A stretch of DNA of 64,000 nt, from the NCBI RefSeq assembly GCF_963921235.1, contig NC_086108.1:31002001-31066000 (forward strand), read 5' to 3'. The notes under the pieces were generated by a model. The model ran no database searches and had not been told where the DNA came from. It saw only the letters and a program-made list of their open reading frames with translations. This stretch comes from Mobula hypostoma. Lineage: Eukaryota. Shown in pieces: positions 1,354-46,400 of the stretch. Every line of letters starts with the position of its first letter. The stretch's first letter is position 1. A program made the position numbers and the translations under genes.

Positions 1354-2307
1354 AAACACAAGATATTCTGCAGATACTGGAAATCCAAAGCAACACACAC
1401 AAAATGCTGGAGGAACTCAGCAGGTCAGGAAGCATCTATTCATTCATGGAAATGAATAGATGATCAACTTTTTGGGCTGAAACTCTTCTTCAGAACTGAA
1501 AAGGAATGGAGAAGATGCCAGAATTAAAAGGTGGGTAGAGGGGAAGGAGGCTAGCTGGAAGGCGATAGGTGAAGCCAGGTAGGAGGGAAAGGCAAAGAGC
1601 TGGAATTTGATAGGATAGGAGAGTGGATCATAAGAGAACGCCAAGGGAGTAGGGGATCCAGGGGAAAATGTTAGGCAGGTGAAAAGAGGTAAAAGGCCAG
1701 AGTGGGGAACAGAAGAAAAAGGGGGGGGGGTGGTGTTCAAAAAAAAATTACCGGAAAAAGAAATCGATAATCATGCCATCAGGTTAGAGGATACCTGGAC
1801 AGAATACAAGGATACAAGGTGTTGCTCCTCCACCCTGAGGGTGGTTTCATCTTGGCACAAGAGGAGGCCATGGACCAACATACAAGACTGGGAATGGGAT
1901 TCAGAATTAAAATGTTTGGCCACTGGGAGGCTCCAGTTTTGGCAGAGATAACGGAGGTGCTTGATGAAGTTTTCCTCCAATTTACGACAGGTCTCAACAA
2001 TGTAGAGGAGGGCACATCAGGAGCAATGAACACTATGGTTAACCCCAGCAAATTTGCAGGTGAAGTGTTGCCTTACCTGGAAGGACTGTTTGTGGCCCTG
2101 AATGGAGGTGTGAGTGGAAGGTGAATGGGTAGGTGAACACTTGCAAGGATAAATGCCAGGAGGGAGATTCGTGGGGAGGGACAAATGGACAAGGGAATCA
2201 TGGAGGGAGTGATTCCTGCAAAAATCTGGGGGTGGGGGCTGGGAGGTAAAGTTATGTTTCGTGGTAGGATCCCTTTGGAGATGGTGGAAGCTGCGGAGAA
2301 TGATGTG
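1354..2307 (-). mobile_element. Penelope-like element fragment (GIY-YIG region and 3' terminus with decayed hammerhead) inserted into the CR1
   Basis: Minus-strand LLYIVET and LPVAKHFNS..HS...LVHGLLLCQDETTLRVEEQHL motifs. The terminus caacacacacaaaatgctggaggaactcagcagg is shared with other PLE copies here. The CR1 rejoins across the insert (aaccaagg|ttccctaaacc). Confidence 0.85.
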
Positions 2308-17814: not shown

Positions 17815-18410
17815 AATGTTCTCTTTTTTTCAAAGAAAGTTGTTTCCCACCCATCATCATTGTTGCTGTCCTCAATACGTCTTCCCCATTTCCTGCACAT
17901 CCGCCCTTACCCCATCTTCTTGTCATCAGAACAGCTCAAGATGCTCCAAATTCAGCACATGATTCTCTGTAAGTTCCACCACCTATAATGGGATGCTATC
18001 ACTCAGCACATCTTCCCCTCCACTACTCCCTTTGTATTCTGTAGGGTTCTCTATCCACTTGTGCACTCCCCCCTCCCCACTGATCTCTCTCCTGCACTTA
18101 TCTTAGTAAGTGTGACAAGTGCTACACCTTCTTGCTCACCAACATTCAGAGCCACAAGCAGTCCTTTCAGGAGAGTCAATGCTTCATACTGACCTTTCCC
18201 TTCACTTGGTCTCACCTATCACCTGACAGGTTGGACTCCTTCTTCTTCTCCACCTTCATATTCTGGTTTCTGTCCTCTTCCTTCCCGATCCTGATGAAGG
18301 GTCTGAGTGAGAAGCATCGTCTGTTTATTTCTCTCTATAGCTACTGCCTGACCTGCAGAGTTCCTCTGGAATTTTGTGTGTGCTGCTCAAGTTGTAGAGT
18401 CTCTGTGTTT
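17815..18410 (+). mobile_element. Penelope-like element continuation (linker and 3' terminus with decayed hammerhead)
   Basis: Cys-rich linker remnant KCDKCYT. A degenerate core ctgatgaagggtc...gaagcatcgtctg lies at 18291-18323, and the terminus ttttgtgtgtgctgc follows. Confidence 0.7.
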
Positions 18411-21425: not shown

Positions 21426-21429
21426 CTTT

Positions 21430-22116
21430 GCAAACAAGAGAGAATTGGCAGATGCTGGAAATCATTGCAACTCACACAAAATGCTGGAGGAACTTAGCAG
21501 GCCAGGTAGCATCTACGGAAAAGAGTAAACATTTGACGTTTCGGGCTGAGACCCTTCATTAGAACTGGAGAAAAAAGATGAAGTCAGAGTAAGAAGGTGA
21601 GAGGAGGGGAGGAAGAATTAAACAGTAGTAGATGATAGGTGAAACTGGGAGGGGGAGGGGTGTTGTTCGAGAAATCAATGTTTTATGCCTTCTATTCCAT
21701 CTGGGTAGCCTCCAACCTGATGGCATGAACATCAATTTCTCAAACTTCCAGTAATCGCGCCCATCTCTCCCTCACCATCCCCCATTCCCGTTTCCCTCTC
21801 TCACCTTATCACCTCCCTCCAGTGCTTCTCCCCCTTCCCCTTCTTCCATGGCCTTCTGTCCTCTCCTATCAGATTCCCCCTTCTCCAGCCATTTATCTCT
21901 TTCATTAATCGACTTCCCAGTTCTTTACTTCACCTCTCACTTACCACCTGCTAAATTGTATTTCTTTCTCCCTTCCCCGCCCCCACCTTCTTACACTGAC
22001 TTTACATCATGTTTCTCCCATTCTGATGAAGGGTCTCAGCTTGAAACATCGACTGTTTACTCCTTTCCACGGATGCTGCCTGGCCTGCTGAGTTCCTGCA
22101 GCATTTTGTGTGTGTT
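21430..22116. mobile_element. Penelope-derived insertion with inverted termini (minus-strand terminus 21430-21685; plus-strand 3' end 21690-22116), both with decayed hammerheads
   Basis: cacacaaaatgctggaggaacttagcaggccagg at ~21474 is mirrored by cctggcctgctgagttcctgcagcattttgtgtg at ~22080. The cores are ctaatga..gaaacgtc (-, ~21535-21565) and ctgatga..gaaacatc (+, 22023-22050). Confidence 0.75.
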
Positions 22117-22569
22117 ACTTCCACTTTTTACCTACCAGTTCTTGCTTCATTTATTCTCTTCATGCCTTCTTTCTCTCACCCTTTAATATCTTGTATAATT
22201 TGTATAGTATTTAATTTCTGTGTACCTACGTGTCTGGCAAGCAAGGTTTTCATTGTACCTGTACTGCACTGTACTTGTGCATGTGACATCAGCTTGGCTT
22301 GGCTGTCTCCCCATTATGCGCTCAGTCCTGATGCAGTCCAAAGCTTCACCTATCTCTTTGCCTCCACCTGACCAACTGAGTTGCTCCAGCAGCTTGCTTT
22401 TTGCTCCACATCCCAGGATCTGCAGTCCCTTGAGACTTTTTCGATGTAACCAAACCTGGATGGAATTAAAAACAAAGCAAGATGAATTGGGAAAAGGCCT
22501 ACAGAACATCGGGATTATCCCATGGTGTCAGCAGTCATAGAATCAAGACACTATAACTGAGAAATAACT

Positions 22570-24380: not shown

Positions 24381-25157
24381 TTCCTGAGCATGGCATCTAC
24401 AGGTATATGGCTGAACCAGAACAAGCAATTGATCTCATTTCAGTGAAAGAAAGTTGAACTTGATTAAATGGGATTGATTTCCTGAGTAAGTGAGGACATC
24501 AGTTACTTGGGGATCTACCCCTACAGCCAGACCTGCAATAAAATGCACTTGACTCAAAAATGCACCAACATTAAAGGAGATAGCTATGCTGTACAAGAAT
24601 GAATGATTAATCAAGCTTCATATCCCTGCATGCCACTTAATTGAACTTTTAAAAGAAGCTGAGCTGAAGGAAATGCTTGAGCAGTTACCTCTTTGTAGAA
24701 GCAAACAGGAAATTGGGCATATGAACGGAATGATCAAATCATGTGGTGACATGTTTATTTATATCTGACTGCCTGCCTGTCTCCTATGAAACTCTTGTGG
24801 TCTGGCTATCTATGAGTTTGGAATAAACCCCAACAAACACTGGAAATGTCAATTCCCAGATCATTACTGAAGTGAAATCTATTCATCAACTATTCAAAAT
24901 ACTAACTAGCCCAGAACTTTTTCGCATAACACAGAGGATGACCTTTCCTTGTGGAACAGGAGTGAATGGGAACTACAAGAAAGATTTGCTTCAACAATGC
25001 AAAGTTAAAATAAAGATGTTACAATAGTTTGAAGTTGTACTGGTCTACTCGTCATGGGTATTATATTGGTAAAAATCAACACCGGCCATTTTGGGGCTAA
25101 CTTTAACAACTTCTGAGGGGGAAAAAAACAGCCAGGATTGATCAGCTGTACACATCA

Positions 25158-25385
25158 ACATAGAAAGTACAGGATAGGAACAAGCCTTTTGGTCTACTGT
25201 GTCTGCACTGACAACCTTGCCAAGTTAAACAAATCCAACCTGCCTGCATGTCATCTATATCTATCTATTCAGTGCCCACTTGTTTGTCTGTTTAAATGCA
25301 TCTTAAATGTTGCTTCCAGTTAGAATATCAATATCTGCTTCTACCATCTCCTTTAATGACAATTCTATTGCACTGCGTGAAAAAA
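25158..25385 (-). mobile_element. Short CR1 3'-UTR fragment
   Basis: acatagaaagtacagga..ggaacaagccttttggtc matches the CR1 3' end in reverse orientation. Confidence 0.55.
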
Positions 25386-25399
25386 AAACGACTTGTCTT

Positions 25400-25483
25400 T
25401 GCTGCCACAATGAGGCCAGACTCAGGTTGGTTGAGCAACACTTCATACTCTGTCTGGGTAACTCCCAACTCCATGGCCTGAAC
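25400..25483 (+). mobile_element. Penelope-like GIY-YIG C-terminal fragment directly abutting the satellite
   Basis: It reads CHNEARLRLVEQHFILCLGNSQLHGLN. Compare CQDETTLRVEEQHL (1771-1980, minus) and LFHLGSLQPDGMN (21692-21730). Confidence 0.8.
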
Positions 25484-28400
25484 TATCATCTCCCAGCTTC
25501 ACAAGTTACCCCACATCCCCCTCACCTGGTCTCATATATCAACTCCCAGTTTCTCACATTATACCCCATCCCCTTCACATCGTCTCATATATCACCTCCC
25601 AGTTTCTCACGTTATCCCCCATCCCCCTCACCTGGTCTCATATATCACTTCACAGTTTCTCACCTTATCCCCAATCCCCCTCACCTGGTCTCATATATCA
25701 CCTCCCAGTTTCTCACATTATACCCCATCCCCCTCACATCGTCTCATATATCACCTCCCAGTTTCTCACCTTAACCCCCATCCCCCTCACACAGTCTCAT
25801 ATATCACCTCCCAGTTTCTCACGTTATCCCCCATCCCCCTAACCCGGTCTCATATATCACCTCCCAGTTCCTCACGTTATCCCCCGTCCCCCTCACCTGG
25901 TCTCATATATCACCACCCAGTTTCTCACCTTATCCCCCATCCCCCTCACCTGTTCTCATACATCACCTCCCAGTTTCTCACGTTATACCCCGTCCCCCTC
26001 ACCTGGTCTCATATATCACCTCCCAGTTTCTCACCTTATCCCCCATTCCCCTTACCTCGTCTCATCTATCACTTCACAGTTTCTCACCTTATCCCCCATC
26101 CCCCTCACCTCGTCTCATATATCACTTCCCCGTTTCACACGTTATCGCCCATCCCCCTCACCCGGTCTCATATATCACATCCCAGTTTCTCACCGTATTC
26201 CCCCATCCCCCTCACCTGGTCTCATATATCACCACCCAGTTTCTCACGTTATCCCCCGTCTACCTCACCTGCTCTCATATATCAACTCCCAGTTTCACAC
26301 CGTATCCCCCATCCCCCTCACCTCGTCTCATATATCACTTCACAATTTCTCACCTTATCCCCCATCCCCCTCACCCGGTCTCATATATCACCTCCCAGTT
26401 TCTCACCTTATCCCCCATCCCCCTCACCTCGTCTCATATATCACCTCCCAGTTTCTCACCTTATCCCCCATCCCCCTCACCCGGTCTCATATATCACCTC
26501 CCAGTTTCTAACGTTATCCTCCATCCCGCTCACCTGGTCTCATATATCACCTCCCAGTTTCTCACGTTATCCCCCATCCCCCTCACAAGGTCTCATATAT
26601 CACCTCCCAGTTTCTCACCATATCCCCCATCCCCCTGACCTGGTCTCATATATCAACTCCCGGTTTCTTACATTATCCCCCATCTCCCTCACCTGCTCTC
26701 ATATATCACCTCCCAGTTTCTCACCTTATCCCCCATCCCCCTCACCTCATCTCATATACCACTTCACAGTTGCTCACCTTATCCCTCATCCCCCTAACCC
26801 GGTCTAAAATATCACCTGCCAGTTTCTCACGTTATCCCCCGTCCCCCTCACCTGGTCTCATATATCACCTCCCAGTTTGTAACCTTATCCCCCATCCCCC
26901 TCACCTGGTCTCATAGATCACCTCCCAGTTTCTCACGTTATCCCCCATCCCCCTCAAGCGGTCTCAAATGTCACCTCACAGTTTCTCATCTTACCCACAT
27001 CCCCTTCACCTGGTCTCATATATCACTTCACAGTTTCACACCTTATCCCCCATCCCCCTCACCCAGTCTCATATATCACCTCCCAGTTTCTCACCTTATC
27101 CCCCATCCCCCTCACCTCATCTCATATACCACTTCACAGTTGCTCACCTTATCCCTCATCCCCCTAACCCGGTCTAAAATATCACCTGCCAGTTTCTCAC
27201 GTTATCCCCCGTCCCCCTCACCTGGTCTCATATATCACCTCCCAGTTTCTCACTTTATACCCCATCCCCCTCATCTGGTCTCACACATCACCTCCCAGTT
27301 TCTCACGTTATCCCCTATCCCCCTCAAGCGGTCTCAAATGTCACCTCCCAGTTTCTCATCTTACCCACATCCCCTTCACCTGGTCTAATATATCACTTCA
27401 CAGTTTCACACCTTATCCCCCATCCCCCTCACCCAGTCTCATATATCACCTCCCAGTTTCTCACCTTATCCCCCATCCCCCTCACCTCGTCTCATATATC
27501 ACCTCACAGTTTCTCACCTTATCCCCCATCCCGCTAACCCGGTCTCATATATCACCTCCCAGTTTCACACATTATCCACCGTCCCCCTCACGTGGTCTCA
27601 TATATCACCTCCCAGTTTCTCACCTTATCCCCCATCCCCGTCACCTGTTCTCATATATCACCTCCCAGATTCTCACGTTATCCCCAGGCCCCTCACCTGA
27701 TCTCATATATCACCTCCCAGTTTCTAACCTTATCCCCCATCCCCCGCACATGGTCTCATATATCATCTCCCAGTTTCTCACCTTATCGCCCATCCCGCTC
27801 ACCTGGTCTCATATATCACCTCCCAGTTTCTCACCTTATCCCCCATCCCCCTCACCCGGTCTCATATATCACCTCCCAGTTTCAAAAGTTATCCTCCATC
27901 TCGCTCACCTGGTCTCATATATCACCTCCCAGTTTCTCACCATATCTCCCATCCCCCTCACCTGGTCTCATATATCAACTCCCGGTTTCTTACCTTATCC
28001 CCCATCTCCCTCACCAGCTCTCATATATCACCTCCCGGTTTCTCACGTTATCCCCCATCTCCCTCACCTCGTCTCATATATCACTTCACAGTTTCTCACC
28101 TTATCCCCCATCCCCCTCACCTCATCTCATATACCACTTCACAGTTGCTCACCTTATCCCTCATCCCCCTAAACCGGTCTAAAATATCACCTGCCAGTTT
28201 CTCACGTTATCCCCCGTCCCCCTCACCTGGTCTCATATATCACCTCCCAGTTTCTCACTTTATACCCCATCCCCCTCATCTGGTCTCATGGATCACCTCC
28301 CAGTTTCTCACGTTATCCCCCATCCCCCTCAAGCGGTCTCAAATGTCACCTCCCAGTTTCTCATCTTACCCACATCCCCTTCACCTGGTCTCATATATCA

Positions 28401-31400
28401 CTTCACAGTTTCACACCTTATCCCCCATCCCCCTCACCCAGTCTCATATATCACCTCCCAGTTTCTCACCTTATTCCCCCATCCCCCTCACCTCATCTCA
28501 TATACCACTTCACAGTTGCTCACCTTATCCCTCATCCCCCTAACCCGGTCTAAAATATCACCTGCCAGTTTCTCACGTTATCCCCCGTCCCCCTCACCTG
28601 GTCTCATATATCACCTCCCAGTTTCTCACTTTATACACCATCCCCCTCATCTGGTCTCATAGATCACCTCCCAGTTTCTCACGTTATCCCCCAACCCCCT
28701 CAAGCGGTCTCAAATGACACCTCCCAGTTTCTCATCTTACCCACATCCCCTTCACCTGCTCTCATATATCACTTCACAGTTTCACACCTTATCCCCCATC
28801 CCCCTCACCCGGTCTCATATATCAACTACCAGTTTCTCACCTTATCCCCCATCCCCCTCACCTCGTCTCATATATCACTTCCCAGTTTCTCACGTTATCC
28901 TCCATCCCCCTCACCTGGTCTCATATATCACCACCCAGTTTCTCACGTTATCCCCCGTCTACCTCACCTGGTCTCATATATCACCTCCCAGTTTCTCACG
29001 TTAACCCCCATCCCCCTCACCTGGTCTCATATATCACCTCCCAGTTTCTCACCTTATCCCCCATCCCCCTCACCCGGTCTCATATATCACTTCCCAGTTT
29101 CTAACGTTATCCTCCATCCCGCTCACCTGGTCTCATATATCACCTCCCAGTTTCTCACGTTATCCCCCATCCCCCTCACAAGGTCTCATATATAACCTCC
29201 CAGTTTCTCACCATATCCCCCATCCCCCTCATCTGGTCTCATAGATCACCTCCCAGTTTCTCACGTTATCCCCCATCCCCCTCAAGCGGTCTCAAATGTC
29301 ACCTCCCAGTTTCTCATCTTACCCACATCCCCTTCACCTGGTCTCATATATCACTTCACAGTTTCACACCTTATCCCCCATCCCCCTCACCCGGTCTCAT
29401 ATATCACCTCCTAGTTTCTCACCTTATCCACCATCCCCCTCACCTCGTCTCATATATCAATTCACAGTTTCTCACTTATCCCCCATCCCCCTCACCCGGT
29501 CTCATATATCACCTCCCAGTTTCTCACCATATCCCCCATCCCCCTCACCTCATCTCATATATCACCTCCAAGTTTATCACGTTAAACCCTATCTCCCTCA
29601 CCTGGTCTCATATATCACCTCCCAGTTTCTAACCTTATCCCCCATCCCCCTCACCTGTTCTCATATATCACCTCCCAGTTTCTCACGTTATCCCCCGTCC
29701 CCCTCACCTGCTCTCATATATCATCTCCCAGTTTCTCACGTTATCCCCCGTCCCCCTCACCTGGTCTCATATATCACCTCCCAGTTTCTCACCTTATTCG
29801 CCCATCCCCCTCACCTGGTCTCATATATCACCTCCCAGTTTCTCACGTTATCCCCCATCCCCCTCACCTGGTCTCATATATCACCTCCCAGTTTCTCACC
29901 TTATCTCCCATCCCCCTCACCTGGTCTCATATATCACCTCCCGGTTTCTCACGTCATCCCCTATCGCCCTCACCTGGTCTCATATATCACCTCCAAGTTT
30001 CTCACCTTATCACCCATCCCCCTCACCTGGTCTCATATATCACCTCCCATTTCCTCACGTTCTCCCCCATCCCCCTCACCTGGTCTCATGTATGACCTCC
30101 CAGTTTCTCACCTTATCCCCCATCCCCCTCACCTGGTCTCAAATATCACCTCCCCGTTTCTCCGGTTATTCCCCATCCCCCTCACCTGGTCTCATAGAGC
30201 ACCTCCCAGTTTCTCACGTTATCCCCCATCCCCCTCACGCGGTCTCACATATCACCTCCCAGTTTCTCACCGTACCCCCATCCCCTTCACCTGGTCTCAT
30301 ATATCACCTCCTAGTTTCTCACCTTATCCCCCATCCCCCTAACCCAGTCTCATATATCACCTCCCAGTTTCTCAGGTTATCCCTCGTCCCCCTCACCTGG
30401 TCTCATATATCACCTCCCAGTTTCACACCGTATCCCCCATCCCCCTCACCTGGTCTCATATATCACTTCCCAGTTTCTAACGTTATCCTCCATCCCGCTC
30501 ACCTGGTCTCATATATCACCTCCCGGTTTCTCACGTTATCCCCCATCTCCCTCACCTCGTCTCATATATCACTTCACAGTTTCTCACCTTATCCCCCATC
30601 CCCCTCACCCGGTCTCATATATCACCTCCCAGTTTCTTACCTTATCCCCCATCCCCCTCACCTCATCTCATATACCACTTCACAGTTGCTCACCTTATCC
30701 CTCATCCCCCTAACCCGGTCTAAAATATCACCTGCCAGTTTCTCACGTTATCCCCCGTCCCCCTCACCTGGTCTCATATATCACCTCCCAGTTTCTCACT
30801 TTATACCCCATCCCCCTCATCTGCTCTCATAGATCACCTCCCAGTTTCTCACGTTATCACCCATCCCCCTCAAGCGGTCTCAAATGTCACCTCCCAGTTT
30901 CTCATCTTACCCACATCCCCTTCACCTGGTCTCATATATCACTTCACAGTTTCACACCTTATCCCCCATCCCCCTCACCCAGTCTCATATATCACCTCCC
31001 AGTTTCTCACCTTATCCCCCATCCCCCTCACCTCGTCTCATATATCACCTCACAGATTCTCACCTTATCCCCCATCCCGCTAACCCGGTCTCATATATCA
31101 CCTCCCAGTTTCTCACATTATCCACCGTCCCCCTCACGTGGTCTCATATATCACCTCCCAGTTTCTAACCTTATCCCCCATCCCCCGCACCTGGCCTCGT
31201 ATATCATCTCCCAGTTTCTCACCTTATCGCCCATCCCGCTCACCTGGTCTCATATATCAACTCCCAGTTTCTCACCTTATCCCCCTTCCCCCTCACTAGC
31301 TCTCAAATATCAACTCCCGGTTTCTTACCTTATCCCCCATCCCCCTTACCTGCTCTCATATGTCACCTCCCGGTTTCTCACGTTATCCCCCATCCCCCTC

Positions 31401-34400
31401 ACCTCGTCTCATATATCACTTCACAGTTTCTCACATTATCCCCCATCCCCCTCACCAGGTCTCATATATCACCTCCCAGTTTAACACCTTATCCCCCATC
31501 CCCCTCACCTCATCTCATATACCACTTCACAGTTTCTCACCTTATCCCTCATCCCCCTAGCCCGGTCTAAAATATCACCTCCCAGTTTCTCACGTTATCC
31601 CCCGTCCCCCTCACCTTGTCTCATATATCACCTCCCAGTTTGTAACCTTATCCCCCATCTCCCTCACCTGTTCTCATATATCACCTCCCAGTTTCTCACT
31701 TCATACCCCATCCCCCTCAACTGGTCTCATAGATCACCTACCAGTTTCTCACGTTAACCCCCATCCCCCTCAAGCGGTCTCAAATATCACCTCCCAGTTT
31801 CTCATCATACCCACATCCCCTTCACCTGGTCTCATATATCACTTCACAGATTCACACCTTATCCCCCATCCCCCTCACCCAGTCTCATATATCACCTCCC
31901 AGTTTCTCACCTTATCCCCCATCCCCCTCACCTCATCTCATATACCACTTCACAGTTGCTCACCTTATCCCCCATCCCCCTCACCCAGTCTCATATATCA
32001 CCTCCCAGTTTCTCACCTTATCCCCCATCCCCCTCACCTCATCTCATATACCACTTCACAGTTGCTCACCTTATCCCCCATCCCCCTCACCTCGTCTCAT
32101 ATATCACTTCCCAGTTTCTCACGTTATCCTCCATCCCCCTCACCTGGTCTCATATATCACCTCCCAGTTTCTCACCTTATCCCCCATCCCCCTCACCTCA
32201 TCTCATATACCACTTCACAGTTGCTCACCTTATCCCCCATCCCCCTCACCTCGTCTCATATATCACTTCCCAGTTTCTCACGTTATCCTCCATCCCCCTC
32301 ACCTGGTCTCATATATCACCACCCAGTTTCTCACGTTATCCCCCGTCTACCTCACCTGGTCTCATATATCACCTCCCAGTTTCTCACGTTAACCCCCATC
32401 CCCCTCACCTGGTCTCATATATCACCTCCCAGTTTCTCACCTTATCCCCCATCCCCCTCACCCGGTCTCATATATCACTTCCCAGTTTCTAACGTTATCC
32501 TCCATCCCGCTCACCTGGTCTCATATATCACCTCCCAGTTTCTCACGTTATCCCCCATCCCCCTCACAAGGTCTCATATATAACCTCCCAGTTTCTCACC
32601 ATATCCCCCATCCCCCTCATCTGGTCTCATAGATCACCTCCCAGTTTCTCACGTTATCCCCCATCCCCCTCAAGCGGTCTCAAATGTCACCTCCCAGTTT
32701 CTCATCTTACCCACATCCCCTTCACCTCGTCTCATATATCACTTCACAGTTTCTCACCTTATCCCTCATCCCCCTAGCCCGGTCTAAAATATCACCTCCC
32801 AGTTTCTCACGTTATCCCCCGTCCCCCTCACCTTGTCTCATATATCACCTCCCAGTTTGTAACCTTATCCCCCATCTCCCTCACCTGTTCTCATATATCA
32901 CCTCCCAGTTTCTCACTTCATACCCCATCCCCCTCAACTGGTCTCATAGATCACCTACCAGTTTTTCACGTTAACCCCCATCCCCCTCAAGCGGTCTCAA
33001 ATATCACCTCCCAGTTTCTCATCATACCCACATCCCCTTCAGCTGGTCTCATATATCACTTCACAGTTTCACACCTTATCCCCCATCCCCCTCACCCAGT
33101 CTCATATATCACCTCCCAGTTTCTCACCTTATCCCCCATCCCCCTCACCTCATCTCATATACCACTTCACAGTTGCTCACCTTATCCCCCATCCCCCTCA
33201 CCCAGTCTCATATATCACCTCCCAGTTTCTCACCTTATCCCCCATCCCCCTCACCTCATCTCATATACCACTTCACAGTTGCTCACCTTATCCCCCATCC
33301 CCCTCACCTCATCTCATATACCACTTCACAGTTGCTCACCTTATCCCCCATCCCCCTCACCCGGTCTCATATATCACTTCCCAGTTTCTAACGTTATCCT
33401 CCATCCCGCTCACCTGGTCTCATATATCACCTCCCAGTTTCTCACGTTATCCCCCATCCCCCTCACAAGGTCTCATATATAACCTCCCAGTTTCTCACCA
33501 TATCCCCCATCCCCCTCATCTGGTCTCATAGATCACCTCCCAGTTTCTCACGTTATCCCCCATCCCCCTCAAGCGGTCTCAAATGTCACCTCCCAGTTTC
33601 TCATCTTACCCACATCCCCTTCACCTGGTCTCATATATCACTTCACAGTTTCACAGCTTATCCCCCATCCCCCTCACCCGGTCTCATATATCACCTCCTA
33701 GTTTCTCACCTTATCCACCATCCCCCTCACCTCGTCTCATATATCACTTCACAGTTTCTCACTTTATCCCCCATCCCCCTCACCCGGTCTCATATATCAC
33801 CTCCCAGTTTCTCACCTTATCCCCCATCCCCCTCACCTCATCTCATATATCACCTCCCAGTTTCTCACCTTATCCCCCATCCCCCTCACCTGTTCTCATA
33901 TATCACCTCCCAGATTCTCACGTTATTCCCAGCCCCGTCACCTGGTCTCATATATCACCTTCCAGTTTCTAACCTTATCCCCCATCCCCCTCACCTGTTC
34001 TCATATATCACCTCCCAGTTTCTCACGTTATCCCCCGTCCCCCTCACCTGCTCTCATATATCATCTCCCAGTTTCTCACGTTATCCCCCGTCCCCCTCAC
34101 CTGGTCTCGTATATCACCTCCAAGTTTCTCAGAATATCGCCCATCCCGCTCACCTGGTCTCATATATCACCTCCCAGTTTCTCACCTTATTCGCCCATCC
34201 CCCTCACCTGGTCTCATATATCACCTCCCAGTTTCTCACGTTATCCCCCATCCCCCTCACCTGGTGTCATATATCACCTCCCAGTTTCTCACCTTATCTC
34301 CCAACCCCCTCACCTGGTCTCATATATCACCTCCCGGTTTCTCACGTCATCCCCTATCGCCCTCACCTGGTCTCATATATCACCTCCAAGTTTCTCACCT

Positions 34401-37400
34401 TATCACCCATCCCCCTCACCTGGTCTCATATATCACCTCCCAGTTCCTCACGTTATCCCCCATCCCCCTCACCTGGTCTCATGTATGACCTCCCAGTTTC
34501 TCACCTTATCCCCCATCCCACTCACCTGGTCTCAAATATCACCTCCCCGTTTCTCACGTTATTCCCCATCCCCCTCACCTGGTCTCATAGAGCACCTCCC
34601 AGTTTCTCACGTTATCCCCCATCCCCCACACGCGGTCTCACATATCACCTCCCAGTTTCTCACCGTACCCCCATCCCCTTCACCTGGTCTCATATATCAC
34701 TTCACAGCATCACACCTTATCTCCCATCCCCCTCACCCGGTCTCATATATCACCTCCTAGTTTCTCACCTTATCCCCCATCCCCCTAACCCAGTCTCATA
34801 TATCACCTCCCAGTTTCTCAGTTTATCCCTCGTCCCCCTCACCTGGTCTCATATATCACCTCCCAGTTTCACACCGTATCCCCCATCCCCCTCACCTGGT
34901 CTCATATATCACTTCCCAGTTTCTAACGTTATCCTCCATCCCGCTCACCTGGTCTCATATATCACCTCCCGGTTTCTCACGTTATCCCCCATCTCCCTCA
35001 CCTCGTCTCATATATCACTTCACAGTTTCTCACCTTATCCCCCATCCCCCTCACCCGGTCTCATATATCACCTCCCAGTTTCTTACCTTATCCCCCATCC
35101 CCCTCACCTCATCTCATATACCACTTCACAGTTGCTCACCTTATCCCTCATCCCCCTAACCCGGTCTAAAATATCACCTGCCAGTTTCTCACGTTATCCC
35201 CCGTCCCCCTCACCTGGTCTCATATATAACCTCCCAGTTTCTCACCATATCCCCCATCCCCCTCATCTGGTCTCATAGATCACCTCCCAGTTTCTCACGT
35301 TATCCCCCATCCCCCTCAAGCGGTCTCAAATGTCACCTCCCAGTTTCTCATCTTACCCACATCCCCTTCACCTGGTCTCATATATCACTTCACAGTTTCA
35401 CAGCTTATCCCCCATCCCCCTCACCCGGTCTCATATATCACCTCCTAGTTTCTCACCTTATCCACCATCCCCCTCACCTCGTCTCATATATCACTTCACA
35501 GTTTCTCACTTTATCCCCCATCCCCCTCACCCGGTCTCATATATCACCTCCCAGTTTCTCACCTTATCCCCCATCCCCCTCACCTCATCTCATATATCAC
35601 CTCCCAGTTTCTCACCTTATCCCCCATCCCCCTCACCTGTTCTCATATATCACCTCCCAGATTCTCACGTTATTCCCAGCCCCGTCACCTGGTCTCATAT
35701 ATCACCTTCCAGTTTCTAACCTTATCCCCCATCCCCCTCACCTGTTCTCATATATCACCTCCCAGTTTCTCACGTTATCCCCCGTCCCCCTCACCTGCTC
35801 TCATATATCATCTCCCAGTTTCTCACGTTATCCCCCGTCCCCCTCACCTGGTCTCGTATATCACCTCCAAGTTTCTCAGAATATCGCCCATCCCGCTCAC
35901 CTGGTCTCATATATCACCTCCCAGTTTCTCACCTTATTCGCCCATCCCCCTCACCTGGTCTCATATATCACCTCCCAGTTTCTCACGTTATCCCCCATCC
36001 CCCTCACCTGGTCTCATATATCACCTCCCAGTTTCTCACCTTATCTCCCAACCCCCTCACCTGGTCTCATATATCACCTCCCGGTTTCTCACGTCATCCC
36101 CTATCGCCCTCACCTGGTCTCATATATCACCTCCAAGTTTCTCACCTTATCACCCATCCCCCTCACCTGGTCTCATATATCACCTCCCATTTCCTCACGT
36201 TATCCCCCATCCCCCTCACCTGGTCTCATGTATGACCTCCCAGTTTCTCACCTTATCCCCCATCCCACTCACCTGGTCTCAAATATCACCTCCCCGTTTC
36301 TCACGTTATTCCCCATCCCCCTCACCTGGTCTCATAGAGCACCTCCCAGTTTCTCACGTTATCCCCCATCCCCCTCACGCGGTCTCACATATCACCTCCC
36401 AGTTTCTCACCGTACCCCCATCCCCTTCACCTGGTCTCATATATCACTTCACAGCATCACACCTTATCTCCCATCCCCCTCACCCGGTCTCATATATCAC
36501 CTCCTAGTTTCTCACCTTATCCCCCATCCCCCTAACCCAGTCTCATATATCACCTCCCAGTTTCTCAGTTTATCCCTCGTCCCCCTCACCTGGTCTCATA
36601 TATCACCTCCCAGTTTCACACCGTATCCCCCATCCCCCTCACCTGGTCTCATATATCACTTCCCAGTTTCTAACGTTATCCTCCATCCCGCTCACCTGGT
36701 CTCATATATCACCTCCCGGTTTCTCACGTTATCCCCCATCTCCCTCACCTCGTCTCATATATCACTTCACAGTTTCTCACCTTATCCCCCATCCCCCTCA
36801 CCCGGTCTCATATATCACCTCCCAGTTTCTTACCTTATCCCCCATCCCCCTCACCTCATCTCATATACCACTTCACAGTTGCTCACCTTATCCCTCATCC
36901 CCCTAACCCGGTCTAAAATATCACCTGCCAGTTTCTCACGTTATCCCCCGTCCCCCTCACCTGGTCTCATATATCACCTCCCAGTTTCTCACTTTATACC
37001 CCATCCCCCTCATCTGGTCTCATAGATCACCTCCCAGTTTCTCACGTTATCACCCGTCCCCCTCAAGCGGTCTCAAATGTCACCTCCCAGTTTCTCATCT
37101 TACCCACATCCCCTTCACCTGGTCTCATATATCACTTCACAGTTTCACACCTTATCCCCCATCCCCCTCACCCAGTCTCATATATCACCTCCCAGTTTCT
37201 CACCTTATCCCCCATCCCCCTCACCTCGTCTCATATATCACCTCACAGTTTCTCACCTTATCCCCCATCCCGCTAACCCGGTCTCATATATCACCTCCCA
37301 GTTTCTCACATTATCCACCGTCCCCCTCACGTGGTCTCATATATCACCTCCCAGTTTCTAACCTTATCCCCCATCCCCCGCACCTGGCCTCGTATATCAT

Positions 37401-40400
37401 CTCCCAGTTTCTCACCTTATCGCCCATCCCGCTCACCTGGTCTCATATATCAACTCCCAGTTTCTCACCTTATCCCCCTTCCCCCTCACGAGCTCTCAAA
37501 TATCAACTCCCGGTTTCTTACCTTATCCCCCATCCCCCTTACCTGCTCTCATATGTCACCTCCCGGTTTCTCACGTTATCCCCCATCCCCCTCACCTCGT
37601 CTCATATATCACTTCACAGTTTCTCACATTATCCCCCATCCCCCTCACCAGGTCTCATATATCACCTCCCAGTTTAACACCTTATCCCCCATCCCCCTCA
37701 CCTCATCTCATATACCACTTCACAGTTTCTCACCTTATCCCTCATCCCCCTAGCCCGGTCTAAAATATCACCTCCCAGTTTCTCACGTTATCCCCCGTCC
37801 CCCTCACCTTGTCTCATATATCACCTCCCAGTTTGTAACCTTATCCCCCATCTCCCTCACCTGTTCTCATATATCACCTCCCAGTTTCTCACTTCATACC
37901 CCATCCCCTTCAACTGGTCTCATAGATCACCTACCAGTTTCTCACGTTAACCCCCATCCCCCTCAAGCGGTCTCAAATATCACCTCCCAGTTTCTCATCA
38001 TACCCACATCCCCTTCACCTGTTCTCATATATCACTTCACAGTTTCACACCTTATCCCCCATCCCCCTCACCCAGTCTCATATATCACCTCCCAGTTTCT
38101 CACCTTATCCCCCATCCCCCTCACCCGGTCTCATATATCACCTCCCAGTTTCTCACCTTATCCCCCAACCCCCTCACCTCGTCTCATATATCACCTCCCA
38201 GTTTCTCACCTTATCCCCCATCCCCCTCACCCGGTCTCATATATCACCTCCCAGTTTCTAACGTTATCCTCCATCCCGCTCACCTGGTCTCATATATCAC
38301 CTCACAGTTTCTCACGTTATCCCCCATACCCCTCACAAGGTCTCATATATCACCTCCCAGTTTCTCACCATATCCCCCATCCCCCTGACCTGGTCTCATA
38401 TATCAACTCCCGGTTTCTTACCTTATCCCCCATCTCCCTCACCTGCTCTCATATATCACCTCCCAGTTTCTCACCTTATCCCCCATCCCCCTCACCTCAT
38501 CTCATATACCACTTCACAGTTGCTCACCTTATCCCTCATCCCCCTAACCCGGTCTAAAATATCACCTGCCAGTTTCTCACGTTATCCCCCGTCCCCCTCA
38601 CCTGGTCTCATATATCACCTCCCAGTTTCTCACTTTATACCCCATCCCCGTCATCTGGTCTCACACATCACCTCCCAGTTTCTCACGTTATCCCCTATCC
38701 CCCTCAAGCGGTCTCAAATGTCACCTCCCAGTTTCTCATCTTACCCACATCCCCTTCACCTGGTCTAATATATCACTTCACAGTTTCACACCTTATCCCC
38801 CATCCCCCTCACCCAGTCTCATATATCACCTCCCAGTTTCTCACCTTATCCCCCATCCCCCTCACCTCGTCTCATATATCACCTCACAGTTTCTCACCTT
38901 ATCCCCCATCCCGCTAACCCGGTCTCATATATCACCTCCCAGTTTCACACATTATCCACCGTCCCCCTCACGTGGTCTCATATATCACCTCCCAGTTTCT
39001 CACCTTATCCCCCATCCCCGTCACCTGTTCTCATATATCACCTCCCAGATTCTCACGTTATCCCCAGTCCCCCTCACCTGATCTCATATATCACCTCCCA
39101 GTTTCTAACCTTATCCCCCATCCCCCGCACATGGTCTCATATATCATCTCCCAGTTTCTCACATTATCGCCCATCCCGCTCACCTGGTCTCATATATCAC
39201 CTCCCAGTTTCTCACCTTATCCCCCAACCCCCTCACCCGGTCTCATATATCACCTCCCAGTTTCAAACGTTATCCTCCATCTCGCTCACCTGGTCTCATA
39301 TATCACCTCCCAGTTTCTCACCATATCTCCCATCCCCCTCACCTGGTCTCATATATCAACTCCCGGATTCTTACCTTATCCCCCATCTCCCTCACCAGCT
39401 CTCATATATCACCTCCCGGTTTCTCACGTTATCCCCCATCTCCCTCACCTGGTCTCATATATCACCTCCCAGTTTCTCACGTTATCCCCCATCCCCCTCA
39501 CAAGGTCTCATATATAACCTCCCAGTTTCTCACCATATCCCCCATCCCCCTCATCTGGTCTCATAGATCACCTCCCAGTTTCTCACGTTATCCCCCATCC
39601 CCCTCAAGCGGTCTCAAATGTCACCTCCCAGTTTCTCATCTTACCCACATCCCCTTCACCTGGTCTCATATATCACTTCACAGTTTCACACCTTATCCCC
39701 CATCCCCCTCACCCGGTCTCATATATCACCTCCTTGTTTCTCACCTTATCCACCATCCCCCTCACCTCGTCTCATATATCACTTCACAGTTTCTCACTTT
39801 ATCCCCCATTCCCCTCACCCGGTCTCATATATCACCTCCCAGTTTCTCACCTTATCCCCCATCCCCCTCACCTCATCTCATATATCACCTCCAAGTTTAT
39901 CACGTTAAACCCCATCCCCCTCACCTGGTCTCATATATCACCTCCCAGTTTCTCACCTTATCCCCCATCCCCCTCACCTGTTCTCATATATCACCTCCCA
40001 GATTCTCACGTTATTCCCAGTCCCCGTCACCTGGTCTCATATATCACCTTCCAGTTTCTAACCTAATCCCCCATCCCCCTCACCTGTTCTCATATATCAC
40101 CTCCCAGTTTCTCACGTTATCCCCCGTCCCCCTCACCTGCTCTCATATATCATCTCCCAGTTTCTCACGTTATCCCCCGTCCCCCTCACCTGGTCTCATA
40201 TATCACATCCAAGTTTCTCAGAATATCGCCCATCCCGCTCACCTGGTCTCATATATCACCTCCCAGTTTCTCACCTTATTCGCCCATCCCCCTCACCTGG
40301 TCTCATATATCACCTCCCAGTTTCTCACGTTATCCCCCATCCCCCTCACCTGGTCTCATATATCACCTCCCAGTTTCCCAACTTATCTCCCATCCCCCTC

Positions 40401-43400
40401 ACCTGGTCTCATATATCACCTCCCGGTTTCTCACGTCATCCCCTATCGCCCTCACCTGGTCTCATATATCACCTCCAAGTTTCTCACCTTATCACCCATC
40501 CCCCTCACCTGGTCTCATATATCACCTCCCATTTCCTCACGTTATCCCCCATCCCCCTCACCTGGTCTCATGTATGAACTCCCAGTTTCTCACCTTATCC
40601 CCCATCCCCCTCACCTGGTCTCAAATATCACCTCCCAGTTTCTCACCTTATCCGCCATCCCCCTCACGCAGTCTCACATATCACCTCCCAGTTTCTCACC
40701 GTACCCCCATCCCCTTCACCTGGTCTCATATATCACTTCACAGCTTCACACCTTATCCCCCATCCCCCTCACCCGGTCTCATATATCACCTCCTAGTTTC
40801 TCACCTTATCCCCCATCCCCCTAACCCAGTCTCATATATCACCTCCCAGTTTCTCAGGTTATCCCTCGTCCCCCTCACCTGGTCTCATATATCACCTCCC
40901 AGTTTCACACCGTATCCCCCATCCCCCTCACCTGGTCTCATATATCACTTCCCAGTTTCTAACGTTATCCTCCATCCCGCTCACCTGGTCTCATATATCA
41001 CCTCCCGGTTTCTCACGTTATCCCCCATCTCCCTCACCTCGTCTCATATATCACTTCACAGTTTCTCACCTTATCCCCCATCCCCCTCACCCGGTCTCAT
41101 ATATCACCTCCCAGTTTCTTACCTTATCCCCCATCCCCCTCACCTCATCTCATATACCACTTCACAGTTGCTCACCTTATCCCTCATCCCCCTAACCCGG
41201 TCTACAATATCACCTGCCAGTTTCTCACGTTATCCCCCGTCCCCCTCACCTGGTCTCATATATCACCTCCCAGTTTCTCACTTTATACCCCATCCCCCTC
41301 ATCTGGTCTCATAGATCACGTCCCAGTTTCTCACGTTATCACCCATCCCCCTCAAGCGGTCTCAAATGTCACCTCCCAGTTTCTCATCTTACCCACATCC
41401 CCTTCACCTGGTCTCATATATCACTTCACAGTTTCACACCTTATCCCCCATCCCCCTCACCCAGTCTCATATATCACCTCCCAGTTTCTCACCTTATCCC
41501 CCATCCCCCTCACCTCGTCTCATATATCACCTCACAGTTTCTCACCTTATCCCCCATCCCGCTAACCCGGTCTCATATATCACCTCCCAGTTTCTCACAT
41601 TATCCACCGTCCCCCTCACGTGGTCTCATATATCACCTCCCAGTTTCTAACCTTATCCCCCATCCCCCGCACCTGGCCTCGTATATCATCTCCCAGTTTC
41701 TCACCTTATCGCCCATCCCGCTCACCTGGTCTCATATATCAACTCCCAGTTTCTCACCTTATCCCCCTTCCCCCTCACGAGCTCTCAAATATCAACTCCC
41801 GGTTTCTTACCTTATCCCCCATCCCCCTTACCTGCTCTCATATGTCACCTCCCGGTTTCTCACGTTATCCCCCATCCCCCTCACCTCGTCTCATATATCA
41901 CTTCACAGTTTCTCACGTTATCCCCCATCCCCCTCACCTCGTCTCATATATCACTTCACAGTTTCTCACATTATCCCCCATCCCCCTCACCAGGTCTCAT
42001 ATATCACCTCCCAGTTTAACACCCTATCCCCCATCCCCCTCACCTCATCTCATATACCACTTCACAGTTTCTCACCTTATCCCTCATCCCCCTAGCCCGG
42101 TCTAAAATATCACCTCCCAGTTTCTCACGTTATCCCCCGTCCCCCTCACCTTGTCTCATATATCACCTCCCTGTTTGTAACCTTATCCCCCATCTCCCTC
42201 ACCTGTTCTCATATATCACCTCCCAGTTTCTCACTTTATACCCCATCCCACTCAACTGGTCTCATAGATCACCTACCAGTTTCTCACGTTAACCCCCATC
42301 CCCCTCAAGCGGTCTCAAATATCACCTCCCAGTTTCTCATCATACCCACATCCCCTTCACCTGGTCTCATATATCACTTCACAGTTTCACACCTTATCCC
42401 CCATCCCCCTTACCCAGTCTCATATATCACCTCCCAGTTTCTCACCTTATCCCCCATCCCCCTCACCTCGTCTCATATATCACCTCACAGTTTCTCACCT
42501 TATCCCCCATCCCGCTAACCCGGTCTCATATATCCCCTCCCAGTTTCTCACATTATCCACCGTCCCCCTCACGTGGTCTCATATATCACCTCCCAGTTTC
42601 TAACCTTATCCCCCATCCCCCGCACCTGGCCTCGTATATCATCTCCCAGTATCTCACCTTATCGTCCATCCCGCTCACCTGGTCTCATATATCAACTCCC
42701 AGTTTCTCACCTTATCCCCCTTCCCCCTCACGAGCTCTCAAATATCAACTCCCGGTTTCTTACCTTATCCCCCATCCCCCTTACCTGCTCTCATATGTCA
42801 CCTCCCGGTTTCTCACGTTATCCCCCATCCCCCTCACCTCGTCTCATATATCACTTCACAGTTTCTCACATTATCCCCCATCCCCCTCACCAGGTCTCAT
42901 ATATCACCTCCCAGTTTAACACCTTATCCCCCATCCCCCTCACCTCATCTCATATACCACTTCACAGTTTCTCACCTTATCCCTCATCCCCCTAACCCGG
43001 TCTAAAATATCACCTCCCAGTTTCTCACGTTATCCCCCGTCCCCCTCACCTTGTCTCATATATCACCTCCCAGTTTGTAACCTTATCCCCCATCTCCCTC
43101 ACCTGTTCTCATATATCACCTCCCAGTTTCTCACTTTATACCCCATCCCCCTCAACTGGTCTCATAGATCAACTCCCAGTTTCTCACGTTAACCCCCATC
43201 CCCCTCAAGCGGTCTCAAATATCACCTCCCAGTTTCTCATCATACCCACATCCCCTTCACCTGGTCTCATATATCACTTCACAGTTTCTCACTTTATCCC
43301 CCATCCCCCTCACCCGGTGTCATATATCACCTCCCAGTTTCTCACCTTCTCCCCCATTCCCCTCACCCAGTCTCATATATAACCTCCCACTTTTCTCATC

Positions 43401-46400
43401 TTATCCCCCATCCCCCTCACCTGGTCTCATATATCACCTCCCAGTTTCTCACGTTATCCTCCATCCCCCTCACCTGGTCTCATATATCACCTCCCAGTTT
43501 CTCAACTTATCACCCATCCCCCTCACCTGGTCTCATATATCACCTCCCATTTCCTCACGTTATCCCCCATCCCCCTCACCTGGTGTCATGTATAACCTCC
43601 CAGTTTCTCACCTTATCCCCCATCCCCCTCACCTGGTCTCATATATCACCTCTCGGTTTCTCACCTTATCCCCCATCACCCTCACCTGGTCTCATAGATC
43701 ACATCCCAGTTTCTCACCTTACCCCCATCCCCCTTACCTCGTCTCATATATCACTTCACAGTTTCTCACCTTATCCCCCATCCCCCTAACCCGGTCTCAT
43801 ATATCACCTACCAGTTTCTCAGGTTATCCCCCGTCCCCCTCACCTGGTCTCATATATCACCTCCCAGTTTCTCACGTTATCCTCCATCCCCCTCACCTGG
43901 TCTCATATATCACCTCCCCGTTACTCACGTTATCCCCCATCCCCCTCACCTGGTCTCATAGATCACCTCCCAGTTTCTCACGTTATCCCCCAGCCCCCTG
44001 ACCCGGTTTCATATATCACCTCCCAGTTTCTCACCTTATTCCCCCATCCCCCTAACCTAGTCTCATATATCACCACCCAGTTTCTCACGTTATCCCCCGT
44101 CCACCTCACTTGGTCTCATATATCAACTCCAAGTTTCACACCATATCCCCCAGCCCCCTCACCTCGTCTCATATATCACTTCACAGTTTCTCACCTTATC
44201 CCCCATCCCCCTCACCTCATCTCATATACCACTTCACAGTTGCTCACCTTATCCCTCATCCCCCTAACCCGGTCTAAAATATCACCTGCCAGTTTCTCAC
44301 GTTATCCCCCATCCCCCTCACCTAGTCTCATATATCACCTCCCCGTTTCTCACGTTATCCCCCATCCCCCTCACCTGGTCTCATAGATCACCTCCCAGTT
44401 TCTCACGTTATCCCCCATCCCCCTGACCCGGTTTCATATATCACCTCCCAGTTTCTCACCTTATTCCCCCATCCCCCTAACCCAGTCTCATATATCACCT
44501 CCCAGTTTCTCAGGTTATCCCTCGTCCCCCTCAACTGGTCTCATATATCACCTCCCAGTTTCACACCGTATCCCCCATCCCCCTCACCTGGTCTCATATA
44601 TCACTTCCCAGTTTCTAACGTTATCCTCCATCCCGCTCACCTGGTCTCATATATCACCTCCCGGTTTCTCACGTTATCCCCCATCTCCCTCACCTCGTCT
44701 CATATATCACTTCACAGTTTCTCACCTTATCCCCCATCCCCCTCACCCGGTCTCATATATTACCTCCCAGTTTCTTACCTTATCCCCCAGCCCCCTCACC
44801 TCATCTCATATACCACTTCACAGTTGCTCACCTTATCCCTCATCCCCCTAACCCGGTCTAAAATATCACCTGCCAGTTTCTCACGTTATCCCCCGTCCCC
44901 CTCACCTGGTCTCATATATCACCTCCCAGTTTCTCACTTTATACCCCATCCCCCTCATCTGGTCTCATAGATCACCTCCCAGTTTCTCACGTTATCACCC
45001 ATCCCCCTCAAGCGGTCTCAAATGTCACCTCCCAGTTTCTCATCTTACCCACATCCCCTTCACCTGGTCTCATATATCACTTCACAGTTTCACACCTTAT
45101 CCCCCATCCCCCTCACCCAGTCTCATATATCACCTCCCAGTTTCTCACCTTATCCTCCATCCCCCTCACCTCGTCTCATATATCACCTCACAGTTTCTCA
45201 CCTTATCCCCCATCCCGCAAACCCGGTCTCATATATCACCTCCCAGTTTCTCACATTATCCACCGTCCCCCTCACGTGGTCTCATATATCACCTCCCAGT
45301 TTCTAACCTTATCCCCCATCCCCCGCACCTGGCCTCGTATATCATCTCCCAGTTTCTCACCTTATCGCCCATCCCGCTCACCTGGTCTCATATATCAACT
45401 CCCAGTTTCTCACCTTATCCCCCTTCCCCCTCACGAGCTCTCAAATATCAACTCCCGGTTTCTTACCTTATCCCCCATCCCCCTTACCTGCTCTCATATG
45501 TCACCTCCCGGTTTCTCACGTTATCCCCCATCCCCCTCACCTCGTCTCATATATCACTTCACAGTTTCTCACATTATCCCCCATCCCCCTCACCAGGTCT
45601 CATATATCACCTCCCAGTTTAACACCTTATCCCCCATCCCCCTCACCTCATCTCATATACCACTTCACAGTTTCTCACCTTATCCCTCATCCCCCTAGCC
45701 CGGTCAAAAATATCACCTCCCAGTTTCTCACGTTATCCCCCGTCCCCCTCACCTTGTCTCATATATCACCTCCCAGTTTGTAACCTTATCCCACATCTCC
45801 CTCACCTGTTCTCATATATCACCTCCCAGTTTCTCACTTTATACCCCATCCCCCTCAACTGGTCTCATAGATCACCTCCCAGTTTCTCACGTTAACCCCC
45901 ATCCCCCTCAAGCGGTCTCAAATATCACCTCCCAGTTTCTCATCATACCCACATCCCCTTCACCTGGTCTCATATATCACTTCACAGTTTCACACCTTAT
46001 CCCCCATCCCCCTCACCCAGTCTCATATATCACCTCCCAGTTTCTCACCTTATCCCCCATCCCGCTAACCCGGTCTCATATATCAACTCCCAGTTTCTCA
46101 CATTATCCACCGTCCCCCTCACGTGGTCTCATATATCACCTCCCAGTTTCTAACCTTATCCCCCATCCCCCGCACCTGGCCTCGTATATCATCTCCCAGT
46201 TTCTCACCTTATCGTCCATCCCGCTCACCTGGTCTCATATATCAACTCCCAGTTTCTCACATTATCCCCCTTCCCCCTCACGAGCTCTCAAATATCAACT
46301 CCCGGTTTCTTACCTTATCCCCCATCCCCCTTACCTGCTCTCATATGTCACCTCCCGGTTTCTCACGTTATCCCCCATCCCCCTCACCTCGTCTCATATA

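What the first reader, a model, noticed from the sequence alone, without database searches (positions are those of the whole stretch)
25400..25640. The >38-kb satellite appears to originate from a Penelope-like element, with the birth junction visible
Seen: the array begins immediately after a PLE GIY-YIG C-terminus (...catggcctgaac|tatcatctcccagcttc...). The monomer resembles PLE 3' sequence elsewhere in the window. ttcacttggtctcacctatcacctgacag (18201-18229) matches ctcacctggtctcatatatcacctcccag at 23/29. acctggcttcacctatcgccttccag (minus, ~1555-1580) matches at 20/26. aatcgacttcccagttctttacttcacc (~21907) resembles the other half. The first monomer is divergent and keeps PLE-like ctatca and cagcttc. 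Inference: a ~53-bp segment of the PLE 3' region, upstream of the hammerhead, was amplified in place after loss of roughly 175 bp (estimated from the copy at 21730-21906).
Basis: partly seen in the sequence, partly recalled or inferred. Interest (0 to 1): 0.75.

Follow-up and report, generated by a model that had tools for sequence, protein, structure and literature searches.

The report
Satellite grown from Penelope retroelement tail
A block of more than 700 head-to-tail copies of a 53-base sequence in a ray-like fish genome descends from a short piece of a Penelope-type jumping gene and starts inside a dead copy of that gene; this is a clear new example of a known way satellite DNA arises, though birth at this exact spot is not proven.

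Summary
The array is real: 727 uninterrupted 53-bp monomers, 25484 to the window end. It starts right after the last ~88 bp of a Penelope-like element (PLE) ORF. A naive gapped match of monomer to flank does not beat shuffles. Ungapped matches do: the two best hits fall in two separate PLE copies, both 74 bp upstream of the hammerhead core. The monomer equals a PLE 3' UTR unit bounded by a ~14-bp direct repeat, and the array begins at that unit's first base. A related species (~2.9% diverged) shares the junction and first 1.5 monomers, so the junction is old and not an assembly artefact. PLE origin is about 90% likely; birth at this locus about 60%. The junction is a 156-176 bp deletion scar in a stretch where the ORF end mimics the monomer boundary, so secondary capture fits too. 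The first monomer is not more PLE-like than the consensus. The far end could not be read. Satellites from Penelope and other retroelements are already in print.

The parts
25484..64000 (+). 53-bp satellite array, 727 monomers, open at the right end; C-rich on +, G-rich on -
   Evidence: mean 4.2 differences from consensus, 7.3 between pairs, 296 distinct types; recent block duplications of 23-33 monomers that differ at 3-8 bases in 1.2-1.7 kb
25484..25536 (+). First monomer; the most isolated of the 727 (nearest neighbour 6 differences, all others 4 or fewer); also present in organism B
   Evidence: (X7 record 17)
25397..25483 (+). 5'-truncated, decayed C-terminus of a Penelope-like ORF (end of the GIY-YIG region); left edge about 25397-25403
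   Evidence: loose ends before 25402 and behind 25460 show how paralogous copies continue
25463..25500 (+). Junction: ORF end joined to the first base of the 3' UTR unit; resembles both the ORF end (15/21 to copy E) and the unit boundary (26/36 gapless to copy A 1588-1553)
25157..25396 (-). Decayed 3' end of another LINE (CR1-like; label recalled, not tested) beside which the PLE fragment sits; right edge approximate
   Evidence: local scores above the best of 200 shuffles against 5 of 7 other LINE ends of the window
1568..1612 (-). Single-copy source unit in PLE copy A (45 bp, bounded by a direct repeat 14/18 alike), 74 bp upstream of the hammerhead core at 1493
18193..18232 (+). Right half of the unit in PLE copy C, same 74-bp register to the hammerhead core at 18291; copy C has a ~460-bp internal deletion that lands in the unit
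21689..22120 (+). PLE copy E (ORF end, 3' UTR, hammerhead core 22023); gives the 176-bp deletion estimate; its unit is too diverged to be significant alone
21429..21688 (-). Inverted PLE end next to copy E; its alignable part begins inside the unit

Best explanation
The satellite is an amplified internal piece of a Penelope-like retroelement, most likely grown at this locus. (1, shown) This PLE family carries in its 3' UTR a C/T-rich unit of variable length, bounded by a ~14-bp imperfect direct repeat and ending 74 bp before the hammerhead core; the monomer is that unit. (2, shown) A 5'-truncated copy here keeps ~88 bp of ORF end joined directly to the unit's first base; 156-176 bp of UTR are missing. 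(3, inferred) Misalignment between the two direct repeats duplicated the unit (slippage or unequal exchange); the G-rich strand of this unit is quadruplex-prone by score, which may have helped. (4, inferred, supported by array structure) Unequal exchange and block duplication then expanded and homogenised it, leaving the left-edge monomers out. (5, shown) Junction and first monomers predate the split from organism B. Whether the deletion came before or after the first duplications is open.
For: Top two ungapped hits in 51 kb of flank (both strands) are in PLE copies C (31/40) and A (40/60), both with monomer base 1 exactly 74 bp from the hammerhead core; 0 of 400 shuffles reached either score in anchored windows; 1 of 500 and 0 of 500 flank-wide. 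The monomer aligns to copy A's repeat-bounded unit at 30 of 45 columns with one 8-bp gap, 0 of 2000 shuffles as good, and the best of 53 rotations is the one at which the array starts; two joints (25456 to 25590, one contig each in X1 and X7; 25460 to 25507, one contig in X1) put the ORF end and monomer-like sequence on one dispersed contig; 20 X7 contigs continue past 25460 with ordinary ORF end, not with the monomer; 6 of the 12 joints shown (18 found) imply unit lengths of 56-73 bp, outside the array's 51-55; one 1522-bp X7 contig spans 24300-25562 with 36 substitutions and 1 gap. The first 21 monomers lie in no duplicated block, while 82% of the array does. G4Hunter-type peak 2.0 for the monomer against 0.92 for copy A's unit.
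Against: Gapped scan not above shuffles; first 1.3 monomers against all of copy A in gapped mode score 33 against a shuffle maximum of 32, at a different place. Only 2 of the 4 window copies with a UTR upstream of the hammerhead give significant matches (E p=0.15, inverted copy p=0.21). First monomer ties with the consensus for PLE-likeness. The junction homeology would also attract exchange with an array born elsewhere. One search shows other unit variants, one at depth 156 with 51-bp spacing, so other seeds or arrays probably exist. Only 1 canonical G3N1-7 quadruplex pattern in the whole array. Far end unread; 304 loose ends and 2088 pieces were not shown.
Confidence: 0.6

Rival explanations
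1. PLE-derived monomer, but born elsewhere. This locus captured the array later by ectopic exchange, gene conversion or break repair, using the likeness between the PLE ORF end and the monomer boundary. The junction is then a secondary seam.
For: The 21 bases before the junction match the unit end of copy A at 14/21 and the monomer end at 11/21, so in-phase joining needs no common birth. The missing 156-176 bp need no separate deletion under this reading. The first monomer is not more ancestral than the consensus. Other spacing variants exist (table 5c).
Against: The first monomer has the PLE-type C at position 14, found in 7 of the other 726 monomers and not listed as different in organism B. 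Deletions landing in this unit occur without any array (copy C). Divergence of the ORF fragment from paralogues (about 14% at best over 25402-25460, table 8) is of the same order as that of monomer from dispersed units. Edge monomers are old and shared with organism B.
Confidence: 0.25
2. The seed was made by the element's own reverse transcriptase at insertion: it copied the repeat-bounded unit several times by realigning on the direct repeat, then jumped to the ORF end and stopped after 88 bases. DNA-level amplification came later.
For: One event would explain tandem seed, deletion and 5' truncation. Strand fits: the RNA would be the C-rich strand, the cDNA G-rich. Breaks fall in this unit in copy C (clear) and the inverted copy (5' break) as well as here. 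PLE RTs share their closest ancestor with telomerase RT (PMC8557442, start of abstract listing).
Against: No direct evidence; three breaks noticed after the fact. Ordinary slippage between direct repeats suffices. The monomer differs from window PLE copies at fixed sites (positions 52-53 in both), which fits a copy that had aged before amplifying.
Confidence: 0.08
3. Chance. Both sequences are C/T-rich, and an unrelated satellite happens to abut one of many PLE scraps.
For: Gapped scan within the shuffle range; PLE pieces are frequent in the flank; Tandem array and UTR are both low in complexity.
Against: Ungapped scores, identical 74-bp register in two copies, best rotation equal to array start; dispersed contigs that link ORF end and unit.
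Confidence: 0.05
4. Reverse direction: the PLE family picked the unit up from an older satellite.
For: Homology alone gives no direction.
Against: The unit sits at a fixed place in diverged PLE copies (A, C) and varies in length among dispersed copies, while monomers are only 8% from their consensus.
Confidence: 0.02

Closest known systems
SINE-derived satellites (sSats) of squamate reptiles (Vassetzky, Kosushkin, Ryskov 2023, PMC10702118; abstract, Background and Discussion read)
   Same: Tandem array of an internal retroelement segment with a longer terminal unit running into the parent element; loci up to 1000 units; longer arrays more homogeneous.
   Different: Parent here is an autonomous Penelope-like element, not a SINE; the retained end is separated from the unit by a deletion; cartilaginous fish.
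Satellites from tandem repeats in LTR-retrotransposon 3' UTRs (Vondrak et al., PMC7004042, abstract only; review PMC12692304 section 4.1)
   Same: 3' UTR of a retroelement as seed, local expansion into long arrays.
   Different: There the element already carries a short array; here window copies carry one unit between two short direct repeats.
Penelope-related satellites: HviSat02-2707 of Harttia catfish (PMC11955569, passages); 'Penelope elements' listed as a satellite source (PMC12692304)
   Same: Satellite related to a Penelope element, also in a fish.
   Different: By its name the Harttia monomer is 2.7 kb; the passages seen report a similarity, not a mapped source segment or junction.
Hammerhead-bearing tandem repeats (newt and schistosome satellites, non-LTR retrozymes; reference titles, listing)
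   Same: Tandem DNA tied to PLE termini.
   Different: This monomer stops 74 bp short of the hammerhead; none of the 6 core matches in the window is in the array, so no ribozyme-driven rolling circle is implied.

Membership tests
EN+ Penelope-like element (junction fragment and window copies) | Single ORF with RT followed by C-terminal GIY-YIG endonuclease | tested here: met
   By proxy. Fragment 16/29 identical to P0001 414-442; copy A 59-61% to P0001/P0002; these carry GIY-YIG below Pfam's cutoff; 5 of 6 longer relatives scanned carry RVT_1 plus GIY-YIG, both above cutoff only in P0006. The fragments themselves hit no Pfam family.
EN+ Penelope-like element (junction fragment and window copies) | Minimal hammerhead in the terminal repeat | tested here: inconclusive
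   Core-like motif at 6 places, all in the flank (the raw count is reached by 5 of 100 shuffles); Rfam gave 0 matches in 1-27000; folds of 5 copies did not give a clean hammerhead. For the junction copy it would lie at the far end.
EN+ Penelope-like element (junction fragment and window copies) | Target-site duplication and 3' terminus of the junction copy | not testable with these tools
   Beyond the window; no genome held.
EN+ Penelope-like element (junction fragment and window copies) | Clade (Neptune, Poseidon, other) | not tested
   No tree with named references was built.
Retroelement-derived satellite with retained element end (sSat type) | Long head-to-tail array with homogenisation | tested here: met
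Retroelement-derived satellite with retained element end (sSat type) | Monomer homologous to an internal segment of an interspersed element | tested here: met
   not by the gapped scan.
Retroelement-derived satellite with retained element end (sSat type) | Terminal unit continues into the parent element in orientation and phase | tested here: met
   5' side only, across a 156-176 bp deletion.
Retroelement-derived satellite with retained element end (sSat type) | Element resumes at the other end; subtelomeric or heterochromatic position | not testable with these tools
   Array runs off the window.
Non-LTR retrozyme / hammerhead satellite | A hammerhead in each monomer | tested here: not met
   0 of 6 core matches in 25484-64000; all monomers within 10 differences of a consensus without the core.

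The most novel reading that the evidence does not exclude
The array was seeded by telomerase-like reiteration: a Penelope reverse transcriptase, sister to telomerase RT, copied a direct-repeat-bounded C-rich stretch of its own RNA several times into a G-rich strand during one insertion, then jumped to the ORF end. The unit would be a built-in stall and realignment site that makes this family a recurrent satellite factory.
Probability: 0.07. Interest if true: 0.85.

Novelty: new member of a known kind. Interest (0 to 1): 0.4.

Why it matters
Most links between satellites and mobile elements rest on a similarity hit. Here the source segment is mapped to the base, the likely trigger (a short direct repeat in the 3' UTR) is visible in unamplified copies, and one edge is shared with a related species. 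If the far end resumes the element, the locus is a dated, two-sided record of satellite birth from a Penelope element, and lets one ask why one of very many copies expanded. Earlier unchecked notes on this genome describe two more arrays grown from retroelement pieces, so the genome may offer a small comparative series.

Tried and rejected
Whole genome: none held, so no genomic PLE consensus, no map of other arrays, no far end; the notes tool does not reach past the window. Pattern scans for the unit or monomer found 0 loci in viral, prokaryote and metagenome collections, as expected for a vertebrate repeat. Protein search with the translated array: none of 8000 candidates scored; the open frames in the array follow from a monomer without stop codons and are not taken as genes. 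Rfam: 0 matches. Gapped local alignment as a test of homology: rejected, composition dominates it. No-deletion reading (first monomer = natural ORF end read on): at most 9/21 gapless to copies A and E against 17/21 to the monomer start; rejected, though a short shared word may have guided the join. First monomer as ancestral relic: not supported beyond one base. A second ORF-end-to-unit deletion in the inverted copy at 21665-21689: 20/25 but not above shuffles (26 against 28), so counted only as a break inside the unit. Copy number from contig depth: not usable, depths are summed over overlapping contigs. Organism C runs (X9, X10; share 0.16) have no contig across the junction; a hole, not absence. 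No regular higher-order period: best lags 198 and 17 barely lower the mean distance (6.45 and 6.66 against 7.30). Earlier notes by place, sequence and words returned nothing on this array.

Full report
Setting. The flank is a patchwork of decayed LINE ends and Penelope-like element (PLE) scraps. The best protein relatives of PLE copy A are named from the rays Hypanus sabinus and Mobula hypostoma (4 hits among 99 candidates, 48-61% identity). An earlier unchecked note calls this genome a manta ray; I did not test that. No whole genome is held, so everything rests on the window, on public contigs laid on 24300-25610 and on proteins.

The array. Period 53, 727 copies, 25484-64000. Monomer lengths are 53 (649), 52 (50), 54 (24), 51 (3) and 55 (1). 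Mean distance is 4.2 bases to the consensus (649 full-length monomers) and 7.3 between pairs; 554 of 727 have an identical partner; 82% lie in duplicated blocks of 4 or more monomers, but none of the first 21 does. The four longest blocks differ by 3-8 bases in 1.2-1.7 kb, so expansion by block duplication was recent. There is no regular higher-order period.

The left flank. 25397-25483 translates without a stop and matches residues 414-442 of P0001 at 16/29 (0 of 2000 shuffles). P0001 and P0002 carry a weak GIY-YIG match, and 5 of 6 longer relatives scanned carry RVT_1 followed by GIY-YIG: the layout of an endonuclease-bearing PLE. Paralogous contigs join the window at 25402 and continue leftwards with PLE sequence (table 7), so this copy is 5'-truncated there. 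Left of it lies the decayed 3' end of another LINE on the minus strand.

Is the monomer PLE-derived? The first test failed: gapped local alignment over the 25.5-kb flank scored 73, within the range of 100 dinucleotide shuffles (mean 60, max 75). Both sequences are C/T-rich and gaps exploit that. Ungapped scoring separates them. The two best segments on both strands of the flank end at 18232 (+, score 22) and 1529 (-, score 20); 1 of 500 shuffles reached 22 and 0 of 500 had a second hit of 20. Anchoring on hammerhead-like cores found without the monomer (6 anchors), 2 gave significant matches, copy C 31/40 and copy A 40/60, each beyond all 400 shuffles, and in both the monomer's first base lies 74 bp upstream of the core. 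The other four did not: two have no UTR upstream, and E and its inverted partner gave p=0.15 and 0.21. In copy A this position is the second copy of a short direct repeat (14/18), 45 bp after the first. The monomer aligns end to end to that unit (30 of 45 columns, one 8-bp gap; 0 of 2000 shuffles), and of 53 rotations the best is the one at which the array starts.

Evidence from public contigs (runs X1 of organism A, which holds 0.88 of the words and may be the source sample, X7 of organism B, X9 and X10 of organism C). Two joints place the ORF end and monomer-like sequence on the same dispersed contig (25456 to 25590 in X1 and X7; 25460 to 25507 in X1; one contig each, shorter side only 21-24 letters, so weak singly). 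Of 18 joints with letters between, 12 are shown; by my count from their coordinates they imply unit lengths of 43, 48, 51, 52, 52, 54, 56, 58, 70, 71, 72 and 73 bp, eleven at depth 8-22 and one at 156. Six are outside the array's range on the long side, so dispersed relatives with a longer C-rich spacer exist; 21 X1 and 5 X7 contigs show the same as loose ends at 25557. I could not read these contigs further, so that they are PLE copies is inferred from their likeness to copies A and C.

The junction. Twenty X7 contigs run past 25460 with the ordinary ORF end, not with the monomer. But the junction lies in a look-alike stretch: 25463-25498 matches copy A's unit boundary at 26/36 without gaps, and the ORF end and the unit start share a short word. 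That explains why a deletion would fall here, and equally why a foreign array could be joined here in phase. Copy C shows that such deletions happen without an array: it aligns to A up to 2061, then resumes 6 bases later at A 1592, inside the unit. The inverted copy beside E also begins inside the unit.

Age. One 1522-bp X7 contig at single-copy depth covers 24300-25562 with 36 substitutions and 1 gap (2.9%) and ends two letters later. It crosses the junction and 1.5 monomers. At 25504, 25513 and 25542 organism B has the array-consensus base. An 83-bp X7 contig at depth 614 (flank 4.3) follows the 53-bp spacing without gaps, so B has the satellite too. The junction is therefore not an assembly error and predates the A/B split. 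X1's own long contig stops at 25429, so the junction in A is not bridged by a listed X1 piece. Organism C has multi-copy monomer-like words but no contig across the junction.

First monomer. It is the most isolated monomer, which any array edge would be. Against the PLE states in copies A and C it gains one match (position 14) and loses one (position 6), tying with the consensus; 82 of 727 monomers score as high or higher.

Mechanism. Shown: source unit, direct repeat, phase, deletion, shared edge, block duplications. Inferred from general knowledge of tandem repeats: first duplication by misalignment of the direct repeats, then unequal exchange. The minus strand has two G5 runs per monomer and a G4Hunter-type peak of 2.0 against 0.92 for copy A's unit, but only one canonical quadruplex pattern in the array; a role for quadruplexes is a guess. 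I put PLE origin at about 0.9 and birth at this locus at about 0.6-0.65 given that; capture from elsewhere 0.25; seeding by RT reiteration 0.08; chance 0.05.

What is known. A 2025 review lists Penelope elements among satellite sources and notes 3' UTR arrays of LTR elements (PMC12692304, passages and section 4.1). A catfish satellite is related to Penelope (PMC11955569, passages). SINE-derived satellites with a retained element end and up to 1000 units are described in squamates (PMC10702118; abstract, Background, Discussion). Minimal hammerheads in PLE repeats, including fish, are described in PMC4209133 (passages). PMC12910113 (passages) added nothing on this. Seven searches listed no description of this repeat or of a mapped PLE-satellite junction in a cartilaginous fish; I read only listings for most hits, the library lacks most subscription papers, and supplementary repeat libraries were not examined, so this is not proof of novelty.

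Verdict. Real, well-supported parentage, unproven birthplace; a new member of a known kind. Interest 0.4. Reading the far end is the single decisive step.

Noticed in passing
window 18186-18193; 21659-21689 (-); 25483-25484: Three of the six PLE copies with 3' parts in the flank (C, the inverted copy beside E, the junction copy) break inside or at the edge of the same ~50-bp unit; possible stall or template-jump site. Small numbers, seen after the fact.
   Followed up: partly
window 14952-15220: Near-perfect fold-back of two young PLE ends, hammerhead cores at 15051 (-) and 15088 (+), with only a short spacer.
   Followed up: no
window 21429-22120: Inverted PLE pair (tail-out) inserted at the end of another PLE copy (20660-21425); a further hammerhead-like end at ~22320-22430 may be that copy's remainder (read by eye).
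   Followed up: no
window 20012-20668: Well-preserved LINE 3' end with a short repeated tail, inserted into a PLE copy whose RT part (19558-19987) and endonuclease part (20715-21065) flank it.
   Followed up: no
window 25484-64000: Variant spectrum is rich in C>A (676) and C>G (471) beside C>T (535); these are counts of cells, not events, but transversions on a G-run strand might reflect oxidative damage.
   Followed up: no
table 5c, joint 25550 to 25517 in X1: A unit variant with 51-bp spacing at depth 156 (flank 12.4): possibly a second, small array or subfamily from the same unit.
   Followed up: no
window 17560-17815: A short interspersed element interrupts the RT part of PLE copy C (read by eye; gap in the alignment).
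   Followed up: no
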